Source of the DNA: Escherichia coli
GTDB taxonomy: Bacteria > Pseudomonadota > Gammaproteobacteria > Enterobacterales > Enterobacteriaceae
DNA length: 64,000 nt
NCBI RefSeq assembly: GCF_001677475.2
Contig: NZ_CP015229.1
Strand: one strand, 5' to 3'
This document shows positions 10,871-17,927 of this stretch, in pieces. Made by a program: the position numbers and the translations under genes. Position 1 is the first letter of the stretch, and each line of letters begins with the position of its first letter. The notes beneath the pieces were generated by a model. The model was given only the letters and a program-made list of their open reading frames with translations. It ran no database searches and was not told the DNA's origin.

Positions 10871-13177
10871 ATGTTTAAGGCCAGGAATTGCAGCTGGATA
10901 GGTTTACTTCCCCTGTTTATGCTGAGTCTTCCAGTACAGGCGGAACTTCGATGTGTTGCAAATGCAGTTGATATTGAACCATTTTTTTCTGCGGCTACCG
11001 CTGAAGATAAACAACAAGTTGAACAAGCTATCAACAGTAGCGTGAATCTTGTCCCCGTCGGTTTATCTGCACCGGACTGGAAAGTGCATCGTGGCAATTT
11101 AGTGGTGGAAGGTAATATAGAGAGTAATGAAAAATTGATTGTTCTTGGCAATTTGACAGTCAAAGGAAATATTTCCACTTTCTCTCTTTCTAATCCATGG
11201 GTTATTCTCGGTGATGTGACGGCAACGAATATATTTACGGATTCACCACTGTTAATTACCGGTTCGATAGATGCAAGTGGACTGGTATTTATCGACTCAT
11301 ATTACGATAATCCGTCTACGATTAAGGGAAGTATTAATGCGCGCGGGATATTTATCAATGACATAATTGCACCTGTTGTTGTGTCTTCGATAAATAGCGA
11401 ATTCATGGTCCGTGCGGGAGACAAAAATGACACTGAAAATGTCAAAAAAGCACTGACGATAATAAATCCTGATGCATATTATTGGGGCCTAATAAATGAT
11501 GAAGATGCTCTGAAAGAAATTTTTAAGCGAAGCAATATTCGCATGGCAGGGAATGTCTGTAATCAGATGAAAAAAGAAGCGCTGTTTCGCCCTAAGCCTT
11601 CTCCTGAGTTAGTGCAGGAATTGCAAATGCTGGATGAAGGCAAAGTTGCTGCATTTGAAGGACGAGACATTGCGACATTTGATCTTGCCGTAATGCGAAC
11701 TCTCCCAAGGCTTAAAGGAATTTCAGCTAACCTACGCAAACAACTTATTAATAGCAATGATGAACAAACGATTGAAAGTATGGCGAGATATATGCCCGAC
11801 AATGAGATTCTGGAGTTGACCGATCAGCAATTGGGTTACCAGCCTGTGGTTCTGGGGTTGCTCAACCGTGAACCGCTCTCTGTCGAAATAATGACGCGAA
11901 TGAGTCGTCTACCTAATGGTGTCGGTCCGTTGAATCTTGCGCTACGTGAAGATCTCCCTCTGGATATCGTCATGACTCTGGCGAAAAGAGATTGGGATAT
12001 GATCATTCAGGAGCTTTATAAAGATGCGTGGTTATTGCCCGAATCCATTATTGATGGCTATATCCGCAGTGATGATTCCTCTATTCGTCAGGTCGGTGCT
12101 GGAGGACAACTCACCTACAATCAGGCAATGCAGTTGGCGAACGATTCATCAAACAATGTTGTCACAAGCTTAGCGTTCAAGCTGGCAGAGATGAAGCACC
12201 ATGGTCAATTGTTGCGGATGACGCCACAAGAGAGTGACAAAGTTGCAGGCTATTTATACCAAAAATTCGAGAATGACGATGATCTAATACGTGTGTTATT
12301 TTTAGCATTGCCAGATAACTTACAGTTTAATTTTGTTAAAAGGATGGAGAAAAAATCCCCGGCCTACTTTTGCTGTCGGGATATGCAGGTAATTCACTCT
12401 GACGCTGCTTTACAACGGTTATTGACACGTTTCAACGATCCTGAGGGGTGGAGTAATCTGGCGAAAAATCAGTATCTGAGTACGGCGAAGAAACAAAAAA
12501 TTTGGCATCGCGCTTTATCGCATCGAAAAAATAATCCGAAAGCAGATTCAGCTGCATATGAAACCAGCGCTGATATGATTTTGTCTGAGCTTATCAGCCA
12601 CGGTGAAGTTGATGACCAGATGCTATTAAATGCCACCGCCCTGATACGTTTGGAAGACTGGGACTTTTTAGAGAGTGCATTAGTTAGTTGGGATAATTTA
12701 CCCGCTGTTGTCCTCAAGGAATTACAGCAAAATACGCCACGCAATGATATTTGGGCGAAGTTTTTTCTGAGGCAGGAAAACAGCTCCCGTGCGCAGGTTG
12801 ATGAAGCATTACGCGTCTATTATGCACTCGACCCCGGTGCGTTAGCACAACTGGATGTACTGGCAAAACAACCGGATCGTATATGGTGGAGTACACTGGC
12901 GAAAAGCAATCTCACATTTTTCAAGTTCGGCGCACTTAACAACCGCCACACACCGCCTGCAGTACTGGCGGCAGAAATTGATCCCGAGTGGTGGATTGTG
13001 GCGATGAATAATCCCCGTTTTCCAGTTGATGTATTAAAGGCGAGGCTGAAACGTGATCCTTTGCTGGCGTTAGAGCTTGTTAACCCTGAACTGGATTTAG
13101 TCCGCCAGCTGGCGCTTAACGGTAAGACGCGCGCAATACGGGAACAAGCGATGAAAAAACTTGATGAGTTGTATTGA
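10871..13177 (+). CDS. ydbD: Secreted protein YdbD: signal peptide, beta-helix-like N-terminal region, repeat-rich C-terminal region
   Basis: Track ORF 10865..13177; hydrophobic signal peptide ending VQA-ELR; start could be ATG 10865 or 10871. Confidence 0.85.
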   Translation: MFKARNCSWIGLLPLFMLSLPVQAELRCVANAVDIEPFFSAATAEDKQQVEQAINSSVNLVPVGLSAPDWKVHRGNLVVEGNIESNEKLIVLGNLTVKGNISTFSLSNPWVILGDVTATNIFTDSPLLITGSIDASGLVFIDSYYDNPSTIKGSINARGIFINDIIAPVVVSSINSEFMVRAGDKNDTENVKKALTIINPDAYYWGLINDEDALKEIFKRSNIRMAGNVCNQMKKEALFRPKPSPELVQELQMLDEGKVAAFEGRDIATFDLAVMRTLPRLKGISANLRKQLINSNDEQTIESMARYMPDNEILELTDQQLGYQPVVLGLLNREPLSVEIMTRMSRLPNGVGPLNLALREDLPLDIVMTLAKRDWDMIIQELYKDAWLLPESIIDGYIRSDDSSIRQVGAGGQLTYNQAMQLANDSSNNVVTSLAFKLAEMKHHGQLLRMTPQESDKVAGYLYQKFENDDDLIRVLFLALPDNLQFNFVKRMEKKSPAYFCCRDMQVIHSDAALQRLLTRFNDPEGWSNLAKNQYLSTAKKQKIWHRALSHRKNNPKADSAAYETSADMILSELISHGEVDDQMLLNATALIRLEDWDFLESALVSWDNLPAVVLKELQQNTPRNDIWAKFFLRQENSSRAQVDEALRVYYALDPGALAQLDVLAKQPDRIWWSTLAKSNLTFFKFGALNNRHTPPAVLAAEIDPEWWIVAMNNPRFPVDVLKARLKRDPLLALELVNPELDLVRQLALNGKTRAIREQAMKKLDELY

Positions 13178-13346
13178 TCCACAACGTAATATTTCTTAAC
13201 TATTTGATTAATTGGGATAATCATTCCTGACAGTGAGTCCCCAATACCTTGATATATTCTGAATTTTTAATGAAGCGGCGTGTTGCGATATCTCCGTCAG
13301 GGGAATTGATGCACCATAACGCAAACCGAATTATCAAGGATTGATA

Positions 13347-13952
13347 ATGACGCTCTACCAGATAAAACCGCTCTTTCAGTCGCTGTTAAGGCCGACGATG
13401 TTTTGGCTTTATAAGCACCACGTTACAGCGAATCACATCACTCTTGCTGCACTGGCGCTTTCTCTTCTTACCGGTTTGCTGTTGATGTTGGTGTCACAAC
13501 CCATCCTCTTTATGCTATTGCCCATCGTGCTTTTTGTCCGTATGGCGCTTAACGCGCTGGATGGTATGCTTGCGCGTGAGTGCAATCAGCAAACACGGCT
13601 TGGGGCAATTTTGAATGAGACTGGCGATGTTATTTCCGATATTGCTCTCTATTTACCGTTTTTATTTTTACCGGAAAGTAACGCATCACTCGTGATACTC
13701 ATGTTATTTTGCACCATATTGACCGAGTTTTGCGGTTTACTCGTGCAGACGATTAACGGTGTTCGCAATTATGCCGGTCCATTTGGCAAAAGCGATCGCG
13801 CGTTAATATTTGGTCTGTGGGGGCTAGCCGTTGCCATTTATCCACAGTGGATGCAATGGAATAATCTTTTATGGAGCATTGCTTCAATTCTGCTTCTCTG
13901 GACTGCGATTAATCGTTGTCGGAGTGTGCTCCTGATGAGCGCTGAAAGATAA
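13347..13952 (+). CDS. ynbA: CDP-alcohol phosphatidyltransferase family membrane protein
   Basis: Track ORF 13341..13952; CAPT-like motif DGMLAR...G...D...D; multiple TM segments. Confidence 0.85.
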   Translation: MTLYQIKPLFQSLLRPTMFWLYKHHVTANHITLAALALSLLTGLLLMLVSQPILFMLLPIVLFVRMALNALDGMLARECNQQTRLGAILNETGDVISDIALYLPFLFLPESNASLVILMLFCTILTEFCGLLVQTINGVRNYAGPFGKSDRALIFGLWGLAVAIYPQWMQWNNLLWSIASILLLWTAINRCRSVLLMSAER

Positions 13953-16621: not shown

Positions 16622-16634
16622 ACGCCGGAACGTA

Positions 16635-17927
16635 TTGCTACAAGGCGCTGGCTGGTTATTGTTGCTGGCCCCGTTTTTCTTCTTCACCTATGGATCTCTT
16701 AATCAGTTCACCGCGGTTCAGGACCTTAACAGCCATGATATCCCCAGTCAGGTATTCGGTTGGGAAACGGCGATCCCTTTTCTTCCCTGGACTATTGTTC
16801 CTTACTGGAGTCTGGATCTTTTATATGGATTTTCGCTGTTCATTTGTAGCTCGACATTCGAACAGCGCCGACTGGTTCACCGGCTTATTCTGGCAACGGT
16901 AATGGCCTGCTGCGGTTTTTTTCTCTATCCGCTGAAGTTTAGTTTTATCCGTCCTGAAGTGAGTGGGGTGACAGGATGGCTATTTTCGCAACTTGAACTG
17001 TTTGATCTGCCTTATAACCAGTCTCCTTCGCTGCATATTATTCTCTGCTGGCTACTTTGGCGTCACTTTCGTCAGCATCTGGCTGTGAGGTGGCGTAAAG
17101 TCTGCGGCGGATGGTTTTTACTCATCGCCATTTCGACGCTGACGACATGGCAGCATCATTTTATTGATGTCATCACAGGGCTGGCGGTAGGTATGTTGAT
17201 TGACTGGATGGTGCCCGTCGACCGTCGTTGGAATTATCAGAAACCTGATCAACGTCGAATCAAAATAGCAGTGCCATATGTCGTAGGCGCGTGCTCGTGC
17301 ATTGTGTTGATGGAGCTAATGATGATGATTCAGTTATGGTGGTCAGTCTGGTTATGTTGGCCAGTATTATCGCTACTCATTATTGGCCGTGGGTACGGTG
17401 GGCTTGGCGCGATAACAACAGGGAAAGATAGTCAGGGGAAACTCCCGCCCGCCGTTTACTGGCTGACATTGCCCTGGTGCATCGGGATGTGGCTATCTAT
17501 GCGTTGGTTTTGTCTTCGCCTGGAGCCGGTGAGCAAAATGACTGCTGGTGTTTATTTAGGGGCGTTTCCACGACATATTCCGGCACAGAATGCGGTTCTG
17601 GACGTCACCTTTGAATTCCCTCGCGGACGAGCGACAAAAGATCGACTCTATTTCTGTGTACCGATGCTGGATCTGGTGGTTCCGGAAGAGGGGGAGATCC
17701 GACAGGCCGTGGCGATGCTGGAAACATTACGCGAAGAGCAAGGCAGCGTTCTGGTCCATTGCGCTTTGGGATTATCGCGCAGTGCGCTGGTAGTGGCGGC
17801 ATGGTTGTTATGTTACGGACACTGTAAAACCGTTGATGAAGCGATTAGTTATATTCGAGCCAGACGCTCGCAAATTGTGCTTAAGGAAGAGCACAAAGCG
17901 ATGCTGAAATTATGGGAAAACAGGTAA
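16635..17927 (+). CDS. ynbD: Membrane PAP2-like phosphatase fused to a C-terminal dual-specificity (CX5R) phosphatase domain
   Basis: In-frame within track ORF 16530..17927; start tentatively placed at TTG 16635 to give the ~430 aa I remember for YnbD (start uncertain); motifs [20 protein letters not shown]. Confidence 0.75.

What the first reader, a model, noticed from the sequence alone, without database searches (positions are those of the whole stretch)
10871..17927. ydbD-ynbABCD: an uncharacterised cluster of lipid-metabolism-like enzymes
Five co-directional, tightly spaced genes encode a secreted repeat protein (YdbD), a CDP-alcohol phosphatidyltransferase (YnbA), a CdsA-like cytidylyltransferase (YnbB), a hydrolase-methyltransferase fusion (YnbC) and a double phosphatase (YnbD). 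Together they resemble a self-contained pathway for making and modifying a CDP-activated lipid or head group. As far as I know the product is not established.
Basis: partly seen in the sequence, partly recalled or inferred. Interest (0 to 1): 0.6.

Follow-up and report, generated by a model that had tools for sequence, protein, structure and literature searches.

The report
E. coli ynbABCD orphan lipid operon
This stretch holds E. coli's ynbABCD operon, a cut-down copy of a widespread six-gene cassette that most likely builds and tailors a still unidentified membrane phospholipid from CDP-diacylglycerol; the gene in front of it, ydbD, is an unrelated secreted-protein gene found only in Escherichia.

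Summary
The five ORFs exist at the stated coordinates and every domain call holds: YnbA is a CDP-alcohol phosphatidyltransferase, YnbB is CdsA-like, YnbC is a monoacylglycerol-lipase-like hydrolase fused to a class I methyltransferase, and YnbD is PAP2_3 fused to a Cys-phosphatase.

The five genes are two separate things.

- **ydbD** has a signal peptide. It has homologues only in Escherichia, appears in 0 of 84 related loci, is lost independently of ynbABCD in E. coli genomes, and lies upstream of a published ynbA promoter.
- **ynbABCD** is translationally coupled and conserved across Gamma-, Beta- and Alphaproteobacteria, with YnbA-YnbC fusion proteins. Elsewhere the cassette has six genes. 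E. coli lacks the lysophospholipid acyltransferase and a small membrane protein. The operon is absent or broken in about 21% of 5,426 E. coli genomes.

The YnbA family replaces two of the four signature aspartates with invariant asparagines. Its nearest characterised relatives are inositol-phosphate-using synthases.

Published work shows that YnbB makes CDP-diacylglycerol and can feed MPIase synthesis, and that YnbD complements neither PGP nor C55-PP phosphatase mutants.

The most likely reading is a dedicated CDP-DAG to phosphatidyl-X(-P) pathway with dephosphorylation, deacylation and methylation. X is unknown. The genes are long annotated, so interest is moderate.

The parts
10818..10853 (+). 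Intrinsic terminator of the upstream gene pdxI (10-bp stem, then a T-run). It isolates ydbD from pdxI.
   Evidence: terminator scan; sequence
10871..13177 (+). ydbD: a 768-aa secreted protein with a Sec signal peptide, a short bactofilin-like beta-helix stretch, an alpha-rich middle and a C-terminal DUF2773. It is an Escherichia-only gene and is not part of the lipid module.
   Evidence: absent from 84 related loci; low G+C of 0.39-0.47
13178..13346 (+). ydbD-ynbA intergenic region (169 nt). It holds the published BglJ-RcsB-activated ynbA promoter. No terminator-like site was found here.
   Evidence: (sequence); PMC3950696. The promoter was mapped in K-12; I did not locate it base by base in this window.
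13347..13952 (+). ynbA: a 201-aa CDP-alcohol phosphatidyltransferase with a non-canonical signature, N69-x2-D72-G-x2-A-R-x8-G-x3-N90-E-x2-D94-x3-D98.
13952..14848 (+). ynbB: a 298-aa CdsA paralogue (CDP-diacylglycerol synthase). Its start codon overlaps the ynbA stop (TAATG).
   Evidence: PMC6362211, PMC7018664
14864..15685 (+). ynbC N-terminal domain: a monoacylglycerol-lipase-like alpha/beta hydrolase (Ser115, Asp230, His260; HRGHEHSGR oxyanion motif).
15686..16621 (+). ynbC C-terminal domain: a class I SAM methyltransferase (Methyltransf_20; SAM motif D413-IAAGHGRY) with its own helical cap.
16611..17927 (+). ynbD: a membrane protein. The PAP2_3 domain lies at about 16863-17201 (PSLH and QHHxxD motifs; no KxxxxxxRP). 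The C-terminal Cys-phosphatase domain lies at about 17550-17921 (C384-x5-R390, D354). Residue numbers are for the 438-aa protein starting at the GTG at 16611, which overlaps the ynbC stop by 11 nt.
   Evidence: PMC7413402
17940..17960 (.). Perfect 8-bp hairpin (GTGGACTG-aacta-CAGTCCAC) between the convergent genes ynbD and azoR. It is a possible bidirectional transcript end but has no T-run.
   Evidence: sequence read directly

Best explanation
The span contains two unrelated units.

**(1) ydbD.** This is an Escherichia-specific secreted-protein gene that happens to sit upstream.

**(2) ynbABCD.** This is E. coli's reduced copy of a horizontally mobile, widely distributed six-gene membrane-lipid cassette. 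The six genes are:
- a CAPT (YnbA)
- a CDP-DAG synthase (YnbB)
- a lysophospholipid/LPA acyltransferase
- a lipase-methyltransferase fusion (YnbC)
- a PAP2_3/Cys-phosphatase fusion (YnbD)
- a small membrane protein

**Proposed mechanism.**
- YnbB makes CDP-diacylglycerol from phosphatidate. This step is shown in the literature. In the full cassette the adjacent acyltransferase supplies that phosphatidate.
- Inferred: YnbB hands the CDP-diacylglycerol to the translationally coupled YnbA.
- Inferred: YnbA, a non-canonical relative of inositol-phosphate-using phosphatidyltransferases, transfers the phosphatidyl group to an unidentified acceptor, probably a phosphorylated one.
- Inferred: the cytoplasmic Cys-phosphatase domain of YnbD removes that phosphate. 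This is the same two-step logic as PIP synthase plus PIP phosphatase, or PgsA plus Pgp.
- Inferred: the PAP2_3 domain of YnbD further transfers or trims the phospho-head group.
- Inferred: YnbC, physically tied to YnbA, deacylates and methylates the product.

The final lipid is unknown.

**Status in E. coli.** The operon is normally silent. Published inducers are BglJ-RcsB and cold. It lacks two cassette genes and is dispensable. The reported contribution of YnbB to MPIase is most simply a side effect of its CDP-DAG synthase activity.
For: **Domains and motifs**
- Domain assignments.
- Invariant catalytic motifs in 71-85 orthologues.

**Synteny in loci from Enterobacterales, Neisseriales, Burkholderiales, Rhodocyclales, Pseudomonas, Bradyrhizobium and Acetobacteraceae**
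- YnbA lies next to YnbC in 84 of 84 loci.
- 69 loci have enough flanking sequence to judge. Of these, 54 carry YnbA, YnbB, the acyltransferase, YnbC and YnbD. 34 of those also have a detectable small protein. 7 carry YnbA, YnbC, YnbD and the small protein only.
- The acyltransferase and YnbB are adjacent in 55 of 57 loci that have both.
- Flanking genes are not conserved between genera.

**Fusions and independent annotation**
- YnbA-YnbC fusion proteins of 807 and 927 aa.
- PGAP independently annotates the six-gene form on a Citrobacter IncF plasmid next to Tn3 and in Burkholderia ambifaria.

**Gene loss in E. coli**
- The acyltransferase and the small protein are absent from the whole 64-kb window.
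- The acyltransferase is absent from all E. coli chromosomes and present on only 3 plasmids.

**Closest relatives**
- For 10 of 10 YnbA orthologues, the top NCBIfam hits are archaetidylinositol-phosphate and PIP synthases, all far below the family cut-offs.
- The closest solved structure by sequence is M. tuberculosis PIP synthase.

**Operon anatomy**: overlapping or near-overlapping junctions.

**Literature**
- YnbB makes CDP-DAG but cannot support bulk phospholipid synthesis (PMC6362211, PMC7018664).
- ynbA has its own promoter (PMC3950696).

**ydbD as a separate unit**.
Against: - No lipid product has been linked to the operon.
- YnbA carries Asn at two metal-binding Asp positions. In canonical CAPTs (my knowledge of the structural literature) mutating these positions is inactivating, so YnbA's chemistry may differ from simple phosphatidyl transfer.
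- Overexpressed YnbD complements neither PGP-phosphatase nor C55-PP-phosphatase deficiency (PMC7413402). This excludes the simplest acceptor, glycerol-3-phosphate, or at least release of its product into the bulk pool.
- E. coli has no known inositol-phosphate synthase, and none is in the cassette.
- The E. coli copy lacks two cassette genes. It shows relaxed constraint: dN/dS is 0.12-0.42, against 0.06 for pdxI, on small counts. It may therefore no longer make the ancestral product.
- The order of the tailoring steps is pure inference.
Confidence: 0.6

Rival explanations
1. ynbABCD is a dedicated or back-up pathway for the essential glycolipid MPIase. YnbB, perhaps with YnbA as the true transferase to GlcNAc-1-phosphate, makes GlcNAc-PP-diacylglycerol. 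YnbC and YnbD tailor or recycle it.
For: - Overproducing YnbB raises MPIase and restores it when CdsA is depleted.
- YnbB cannot replace CdsA for bulk lipids.
- ynbB is cold-induced together with MPIase (PMC6362211; PMC7018664; PMC11413397).
- ynbB insertions are depleted in a strain that makes only ECA-PG (PMC8609368).
- The less acidic YnbA motif could suit an anionic phosphate acceptor. This last point is speculation.
Against: - A ynbB deletion leaves MPIase unchanged.
- MPIase is essential, yet ynbABCD gives no match in 12% of E. coli genomes and is incomplete in about 21%.
- The cassette contains no glycosyltransferase or sugar-nucleotide gene.
- It is common in Pseudomonas, Variovorax and Cupriavidus, which are not known to make ECA-type sugars (my knowledge).
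- In Proteus, Providencia and Morganella the cassette lacks YnbB altogether.
- No published test of ynbA, ynbC or ynbD on MPIase was found.
Confidence: 0.15
2. The cassette is a second phosphatidylglycerol/cardiolipin synthesis and remodelling pathway, analogous to the mitochondrial one. The correspondences would be: YnbB to the CDP-DAG synthase; YnbA to the PGP or CL synthase; the YnbD Cys-phosphatase to PTPMT1; the YnbC lipase to Cld1; the acyltransferase to tafazzin.
For: - There is a one-to-one correspondence of enzyme classes.
- PTPMT1 appears among the sequence matches of the YnbD phosphatase domain (E 3.5e-3).
- Weak PgsA and ClsA hits for YnbA.
Against: - YnbD does not rescue a pgpA pgpB pgpC-deficient strain (PMC7413402).
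- YnbA scores 2-3 times higher against inositol-phosphate synthases than against PgsA or ClsA.
- The invariant methyltransferase and PAP2_3 domains have no role in this scheme.
Confidence: 0.1
3. In Escherichia the operon is an evolutionary remnant that no longer makes a defined product. It would be a decaying accessory cassette kept by chance, or for a moonlighting activity of single enzymes.
For: - Two cassette genes are lost.
- Deletions, IS insertions, frameshifts and chimeric ydbD-ynbB or ydbD-ynbC ORFs occur in the population.
- Only 79% of genomes keep at least 80% of ynbABCD.
- dN/dS is higher than for the neighbouring gene.
- The promoter is silent without BglJ (PMC3950696).
- No phenotype for the ynbB, ynbD or Keio ynbC deletions.
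Against: - All four ORFs are intact here and in most genomes.
- dN/dS is still well below 1.
- Every catalytic residue is kept.
- The operon retains a specific activator site and cold induction.
Confidence: 0.2
4. This is the first reader's model: all five genes, including ydbD, form one operon and pathway, with YdbD as the periplasmic partner of the lipid product.
For: - The genes are co-directional, and no terminator-like site lies between ydbD and ynbA.
- ydbD, where present, lies directly upstream of ynbA in the E. coli records inspected.
Against: - YdbD has no homologue outside Escherichia in a 5.8-billion-protein search.
- It occurs in 0 of 84 related loci.
- Some genomes have ynbABCD but no ydbD.
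- ynbA has its own mapped promoter (PMC3950696).
Confidence: 0.05

Closest known systems
Two-step phosphatidylinositol pathway: PIP or archaetidylinositol-phosphate synthase plus a PIP phosphatase (mycobacteria, archaea, Bacteroides BT_1523 type)
   Same: - A CAPT that uses a CDP-activated lipid and a phosphorylated polyol is followed by a dedicated phosphatase.
- YnbA's best family and structure matches are these synthases, over their full length.
- A phosphatase (YnbD) is always encoded beside it.
   Different: - Scores are far below the family cut-offs (60-76 bits against 170-180).
- The D1 and D3 aspartates are Asn.
- There is no inositol-phosphate synthase in the cassette or, to my knowledge, in E. 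coli.
- The phosphatase is a Cys-based DSP fused to PAP2_3.
- There are additional lipase, methyltransferase and acyltransferase activities.
E. coli housekeeping CdsA - PgsA - PgpA/B/C pathway
   Same: The same three reaction classes occur: CDP-DAG synthase, CAPT and lipid-phosphate phosphatase. YnbB is a true CdsA paralogue with CDP-DAG synthase activity (PMC7018664).
   Different: - YnbB cannot supply bulk phospholipid synthesis.
- YnbD cannot replace the Pgp phosphatases (PMC7413402).
- The genes are clustered, accessory, silent and mobile.
MPIase (GlcNAc-PP-diacylglycerol-anchored glycolipid) biosynthesis by CdsA/YnbB
   Same: YnbB is the only Ynb protein with experimental data, and those data link it to this glycolipid.
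   Different: The link rests on overexpression and depletion of YnbB alone. The rest of the cassette, its phylogenetic spread and its dispensability do not fit an essential ECA-like glycolipid.
Mitochondrial cardiolipin synthesis and remodelling (Tam41/Cds1, Pgs1, PTPMT1/Gep4, Crd1, Cld1, Taz1)
   Same: The same set of enzyme classes is present, including a DSP-type lipid-phosphate phosphatase, an alpha/beta-hydrolase lipase and a PlsC-family acyltransferase.
   Different: This is a resemblance of logic only. No orthology was shown. The methyltransferase and PAP2_3 domains are unexplained, and the PGP-phosphatase function was tested negative for YnbD.
Lipid phosphotransferases of the PAP2_3 type (sphingomyelin synthase, Aur1 inositol-phosphorylceramide synthase)
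   Same: The YnbD N-domain matches Pfam PAP2_3. It keeps the C2 His and the C3 His/Asp but lacks the C1 Lys/Arg and the C3 Arg that bind a phosphate monoester. That pattern is recalled from the literature for head-group transferases.
   Different: The Pfam match is weak (E 3e-4). No ceramide or sphingolipid pathway is present. Whether it transfers or hydrolyses has not been tested.

Membership tests
CDP-alcohol phosphatidyltransferase (PF01066) - YnbA | Significant match to the family profile over the transmembrane core | tested here: met
   Pfam E 8e-10, residues 29-178. PDB PIP synthase 6h53, E 1e-7.
CDP-alcohol phosphatidyltransferase (PF01066) - YnbA | Signature D1-x2-D2-G-x2-A-R-x8-G-x3-D3-x3-D4 with four aspartates | tested here: not met
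   D1 is Asn69 and D3 is Asn90. Both are invariant in 84 of 84 orthologues, followed by an invariant Glu91 and an extra Asp98. D2, G, A, R and D4 are kept.
PIP / archaetidylinositol-phosphate synthase (NCBIfam NF045883, NF040950) - YnbA | Score above the curated equivalog cut-off | tested here: not met
   60-76 bits against a cut-off of 180, and 37-53 bits against 170, for 10 orthologues. It is the closest family, but YnbA is not a member.
CDP-diacylglycerol synthase (CTP_transf_1) - YnbB | Profile match and the C-terminal signature S-x-I-K-R-x4-K-D-x-G-x4-G-H-G-G-x-L-D-R-x-D | tested here: met
   Pfam E 1.5e-69. The signature residues are invariant in 71 orthologues. The enzyme activity comes from the literature (PMC7018664) and was not tested here.
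Monoacylglycerol-lipase-type alpha/beta hydrolase - YnbC N-domain | Alpha/beta fold with cap, Ser-Asp-His triad and HG-x-x-EH oxyanion motif | tested here: met
   [not shown]
Class I SAM-dependent methyltransferase - YnbC C-domain | Rossmann-like fold and glycine-rich SAM motif I | tested here: met
   [not shown]
PAP2 lipid phosphate phosphatase - YnbD N-domain | Three motifs: C1 K-x6-R-P, C2 P-S-G-H, C3 S-R-x5-H-x3-D | tested here: not met
   There is no conserved C1. C2 is PSLH and is conserved. C3 keeps H182 and D186, but the Arg is Thr (and orthologue sequences). In vivo, it complements neither C55-PP nor PGP phosphatase mutants (PMC7413402).
Dual-specificity / Cys-based phosphatase - YnbD C-domain | C-x5-R(S/T) P-loop and upstream general-acid Asp | tested here: met
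   DSPc, E 3e-26. C384, R390, S391 and D354 are present in every orthologue that covers this domain (78-79 of 83 sequences). DUSP matches in the PDB.
Bactofilin - YdbD (PGAP name) | Significant match to the bactofilin (PF04519) beta-helix domain | tested here: inconclusive
   Pfam E 0.19 for residues 80-144. No NCBIfam hit. A signal peptide would be atypical for a cytoskeletal bactofilin.
One operon/pathway containing ydbD and ynbABCD | Co-occurrence and co-transcription of all five genes | tested here: not met
   YdbD is in 0 of 84 loci and is found only in Escherichia. It is lost independently. ynbA has a separate promoter (PMC3950696). Co-transcription of ynbA-D itself is not testable with these tools.
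MPIase biosynthetic system | Genetic or biochemical requirement of the gene for MPIase synthesis | not testable with these tools
   Only YnbB has data: overproduction raises MPIase, and deletion has no effect. No data were found for ynbA, ynbC or ynbD.

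The most novel reading that the evidence does not exclude
The YnbA family is a distinct, previously undescribed class of CDP-alcohol phosphatidyltransferase with an Asn-substituted metal site (N-x2-DG...N-E-x2-D-x3-D). Together with the obligatorily linked lipase-methyltransferase and PAP2_3/Cys-phosphatase, it would make a phospholipid not yet catalogued in E. coli or other Proteobacteria, for example one with a methylated or otherwise unusual head group. The MPIase phenotype of YnbB would then be a by-product.
Probability: 0.35. Interest if true: 0.7.

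Novelty: new variant of a known kind. Interest (0 to 1): 0.5.

Why it matters
E. coli's lipid metabolism is thought to be essentially complete. A conserved, mobile cassette of five or six lipid enzymes with no assigned product is one of the few remaining gaps.

This work gives experimenters three things:
- the right construct: the six-gene form, not the E. coli four-gene remnant, and without ydbD
- a concrete active-site anomaly to mutate: Asn69 and Asn90 of YnbA
- a reason to re-examine the claim that YnbB is 'dedicated' to MPIase

If the product is a new phospholipid, it would be relevant to envelope stress (Rcs/BglJ control), cold adaptation and the many soil, plant and gut Proteobacteria that carry the cassette. 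If not, the locus is an example of an accessory pathway decaying in Escherichia.

Tried and rejected
- **Locus search with a broad alignment.** A narrower alignment worked.
- **Context of several distant YnbC representatives.** The contigs were too short to be informative.
- **Fold search of the whole YnbC model.** It was dominated by the hydrolase domain. A domain-only model was needed.
- **Fold search of the methyltransferase domain.** It returned an uncharacterised structural-genomics protein (3ocj) and generic small-molecule MTases, so it gave no substrate clue.
- **The small post-ynbD protein.** Pfam and NCBIfam returned nothing.
- **Hydropathy-based topology of YnbA, YnbB and YnbD.** It was too crude to place the active sites on a membrane face, so no topology claim is made beyond inference.
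- **YdbD repeats.** Self-BLAST found no internal repeats.
- **Rfam scan of 9000-20000.** No RNA family was found.
- **Promoter scan.** Fewer sigma-70-like sites than in shuffled sequence, and none convincing in the ynbA upstream region.
- **Literature.** Nothing was found for PF12147 (Methyltransf_20), and the single DUF2773 mention was in an unrelated paper. Nothing was found for the enzyme combination, or for lipidomics of ynb mutants. The FEMS Lett 2023 paper on cold induction of ynbB is not held.
- **Alternative PG pathway.** Considered and put aside after reading that YnbD fails to complement PGP-phosphatase loss.
- **BioC/BioH-like role for YnbC.** I considered a methylate-then-de-esterify role, prompted by a distant homologue next to ACP-KS-DH-KR genes. 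It is not excluded, but nothing supports it in the ynb context.

Full report
**What is there**

Window 10871-17927 carries five intact + strand ORFs. The 8.2-kb region matches E. coli chromosomes at up to 97.6% identity. PGAP annotates the genes there as follows:
- ydbD: 'DUF2773 domain-containing bactofilin'
- ynbA: CDP-alcohol phosphatidyltransferase family
- ynbB: phosphatidate cytidylyltransferase
- ynbC: bifunctional alpha/beta hydrolase/class I SAM-dependent methyltransferase
- ynbD: phosphatase PAP2/dual specificity phosphatase family

The flanking genes are pdxI, which has a clean intrinsic terminator at 10818-10853, and the convergent azoR.

Junction anatomy:
- 169 nt between ydbD and ynbA
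- TAATG overlap between ynbA and ynbB
- 15 nt with an AGGA between ynbB and ynbC
- an 11-nt overlap between ynbC and ynbD, using the GTG start at 16611

**Domain checks**

- YnbA: CDP-OH_P_transf, 8e-10
- YnbB: CTP_transf_1, 1.5e-69
- YnbC: Hydrolase_4, 2e-66, plus Methyltransf_20, 1e-151
- YnbD: PAP2_3, 3e-4, plus DSPc, 3e-26
- YdbD: DUF2773, 4e-45, plus only a sub-threshold bactofilin stretch

**ydbD is a separate unit**

- A search of 5.8 billion proteins finds YdbD relatives only in E. coli and E. albertii, all at least 79% identical. The search depends on shared 5-residue words, so very remote relatives could be missed.
- None of 84 loci that encode YnbC relatives contains a YdbD homologue.
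- Among 5,426 complete E. coli genomes, ydbD is at least 80% present in 3,833 and ynbABCD in 4,283.
- Individual genomes show several states. Some have ynbABCD without ydbD. In some, pdxI lies directly next to azoR and all five genes are gone. Some have IS1 or deletion variants.
- Salscheider et al. mapped a BglJ-RcsB-activated promoter and its binding site in the ydbD-ynbA intergenic region (PMC3950696).

YdbD has a convincing Sec signal peptide. No internal repeats are detectable by self-BLAST. The region is AT-rich, with G+C of 0.39-0.47. Its only functional label, methylglyoxal detoxification, comes from database names. I could not check it.

**ynbABCD is a conserved module, and the E. coli copy is incomplete**

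A profile-guided scan of one genome per species returned at least 451 confirmed hits, and 80 loci were kept. They come from these groups:
- Enterobacterales: Citrobacter, Hafnia, Pantoea, Proteus, Providencia, Morganella, Xenorhabdus and others
- Neisseriales
- Burkholderiales: Variovorax, Cupriavidus, Herbaspirillum
- Rhodocyclales
- many Pseudomonas
- Bradyrhizobium
- Acetobacteraceae

With four metagenomic loci added, YnbA lies next to YnbC in 84 of 84 loci.

Two more genes recur.
- The first is a PlsC-type acyltransferase with NHxSHxD and FPEGTR motifs. PGAP calls it 'lysophospholipid acyltransferase family'. Its nearest NCBIfam families are acyl-ACP-phospholipid and 1-acyl-G3P acyltransferases.
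- The second is a 130-150-aa membrane protein directly after ynbD. It has no known family.

Among 69 loci with enough flanking sequence:
- 54 have YnbA, YnbB, the acyltransferase, YnbC and YnbD; 34 of these also have a detectable small protein
- 7 have only YnbA, YnbC, YnbD and the small protein (the Proteus/Providencia/Morganella/Xenorhabdus type)
- only 3 have YnbB without the acyltransferase

The acyltransferase and YnbB are adjacent in 55 of the 57 loci that have both. Gene order differs between clades:
- A-B-AT-C-D-small in Citrobacter-like enterics
- A-C-D-small-AT-B in Pseudomonas and Betaproteobacteria
- a divergent AT-B pair in Burkholderia ambifaria

Genes outside the block are not conserved between genera. 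YnbA and YnbC are fused into one polypeptide in two metagenomic loci, giving proteins of 807 and 927 aa.

The window has only 15 nt between ynbB and ynbC and about 50 nt between ynbD and azoR. Neither extra gene is anywhere in the 64-kb window. No E. coli chromosome among the 5,426 genomes carries the acyltransferase. Three plasmids do, inside a Citrobacter-like second ynb cassette cut by IS66. A Citrobacter IncF plasmid carries the full six-gene block next to a Tn3 transposase.

The cassette is therefore an accessory, mobile unit, and Escherichia holds a reduced version. dN/dS between this window and an E. coli reference is 0.12-0.42 for ynbA-D, against 0.06 for pdxI (small counts). This points to relaxed but continuing constraint.

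**An unusual active site in YnbA**

YnbA was aligned to M. tuberculosis PIP synthase and to a solved cholinephosphotransferase 1 (CPT1). The alignment shows that the first and third aspartates of the CAPT signature are asparagines: N69 and N90.

Across 84 orthologues, down to 36% identity, the motif N-A-x-D-G-M-L-A-R-E-x2-Q-x-[ST]-x-L-G-A-x-L-N-E-x2-D-x3-D is essentially invariant. It is therefore a family trait under selection, not decay.

Ten orthologues from different clades all rank archaetidylinositol-phosphate synthase first (60-76 bits, full-length alignment). PIP synthase comes second, and PgsA, PssA and ClsA are far lower. All scores are far below the family cut-offs. YnbA is thus a sister family of the CAPTs that use a phosphorylated polyol and are followed by a phosphatase.

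**YnbD**

The C-terminal Cys-phosphatase has its C-x5-R loop and general-acid Asp conserved in every orthologue that covers the domain (78-79 of 83 sequences). The PAP2_3 half keeps PSLH and QHHxxD. It lacks the C1 K-x6-R-P motif, and the C3 Arg is replaced by Thr. From my knowledge of sphingomyelin synthase and Aur1, that pattern fits enzymes acting on phosphodiesters rather than monoesters.

Experimentally, Tian et al. found that overexpressed YnbD rescues neither a C55-PP-phosphatase-deficient strain nor a PGP-phosphatase-deficient strain. A strain lacking all four PAP2 genes is viable (PMC7413402).

**What is already published about function**

- YnbB is a CdsA paralogue that makes CDP-DAG in vitro. 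It raises MPIase when overproduced and restores MPIase, but not bulk phospholipids, in CdsA-depleted cells. Deleting it does not change MPIase (PMC6362211, PMC7018664). It is cold-induced (PMC11413397).
- ynbB insertions are disfavoured in a strain that makes only ECA-PG (PMC8609368).
- A ynbC transposon insertion caused polyphosphate accumulation in one strain background only (PMC2435150).
- I found nothing on a lipid product of ynbA, ynbC or ynbD. The searchable library is limited to open-access papers.

**Most likely mechanism**

Shown:
- YnbB has CDP-DAG synthase activity (literature).
- The genes form a conserved, tightly coupled module (this work).

Inferred:
- The acyltransferase and YnbB form a feeder sub-module: lyso-PA to PA to CDP-DAG.
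- The feeder's output goes to YnbA rather than to the bulk pool. That would explain why YnbB cannot replace CdsA for growth.
- YnbA transfers the phosphatidyl group to an unknown acceptor, probably a phosphorylated one.
- The YnbD Cys-phosphatase removes the phosphate.
- The PAP2_3 domain and YnbC (lipase plus methyltransferase, sometimes fused to YnbA) tailor the product.

Clades without YnbB and the acyltransferase presumably draw on housekeeping CdsA.

Glycerol-3-phosphate is disfavoured as the acceptor by the YnbD complementation data. Inositol phosphate is disfavoured because no synthase for it is present. I put 0.6 on this overall picture, about 0.85 on 'conserved lipid module without ydbD', and much less on the order of the steps.

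**Rivals**

- The MPIase-pathway reading (0.15) is weakened because an essential glycolipid cannot depend on an operon that gives no match in 12% of E. coli genomes and is incomplete in about 21%. The cassette also has no glycosyltransferases, and it is common in taxa without ECA-type sugars.
- The mitochondria-like PG/CL remodelling reading (0.1) fits the enzyme classes but fails on YnbD complementation, and it leaves the methyltransferase unexplained.
- A 'decaying remnant' reading for Escherichia (0.2) is compatible with the main explanation and cannot be excluded.
- The five-gene model is essentially refuted.

**Verdict**

The genes are long annotated and partly studied, so this is not a discovery of a new locus. 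Four points appear not to be in the searchable literature and make the open question directly testable:
- the six-gene ancestry
- the loss of two genes in E. coli
- the YnbA-YnbC fusions
- the invariant Asn-substituted CAPT motif

Noticed in passing
window 10500-18700: No complete E. coli genome among 5,426 is more than about 97.6% identical to this region as a whole, although 8 reach at least 99% over ydbD alone. Synonymous divergence from one reference is uneven between genes: ynbA 0.107 and ynbC 0.089, against ynbD 0.027 and pdxI 0.048. The window's YnbA is only about 90% identical to the commonest E. coli YnbA cluster. This suggests a divergent lineage and/or a recombination mosaic at this locus.
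   Followed up: partly
L095 (NZ_CP027341.1 52460-56562); L096 (NZ_CP053574.1 106038-111624): A second, Citrobacter-like ynb cassette (CAPT-CDS-acyltransferase-hydrolase/MTase, with ynbD cut by IS66) sits on a few E. coli plasmids. A complete six-gene version sits on a Citrobacter IncFIB/IncFII plasmid next to a Tn3 transposase and recombinase. Only 31 of 72,556 plasmid records carry a YnbC homologue.
   Followed up: partly
proteins P0395, P0419, P0420, P0424, P0425; L002: E. coli populations contain chimeric ORFs that fuse the N-terminal part of YdbD to YnbB or YnbC. One cluster has 149 member sequences. There is also a ynbA'-'ynbC deletion that removes ynbB. These are recurrent internal deletions across the locus.
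   Followed up: partly
L091/L092 9001-10779 and L090 777-2531: Distant hydrolase-Methyltransf_20 fusions (33-36% identical) are not in a ynb-type cassette. One lies beside a small ORF of acyl-carrier-protein size plus ketoacyl-synthase, dehydratase and ketoreductase genes. Another lies beside a PEMT/ICMT-type methyltransferase. This hints that the fusion acts on acyl or carboxyl groups in other lipid contexts.
   Followed up: no
window 17940-17960: A perfect 8-bp inverted repeat with a 5-nt loop lies between the convergent stops of ynbD and azoR. There is no T-run on either side.
   Followed up: no
window 17912-18571 (+): A 219-aa ORF lies antisense to azoR (17978-18583, - strand). It is almost certainly a shadow ORF, not a gene.
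   Followed up: no
window 11000-14500: ydbD, ynbA and ynbB have markedly lower G+C (0.39-0.45) than ynbC/ynbD and the flanking genes (0.48-0.56). This is consistent with foreign origin and H-NS-type silencing. ynbA itself was not among the loci tested for H-NS repression in PMC3950696, as far as I read.
   Followed up: no
[not shown]
   Followed up: no
L016 (Phytobacter massiliensis) 8449-12393: Phytobacter has ynbA-ynbB-ynbC directly followed by azoR, with no ynbD, acyltransferase or small protein. This is an even more reduced version at the same chromosomal position as in E. coli and Citrobacter.
   Followed up: no
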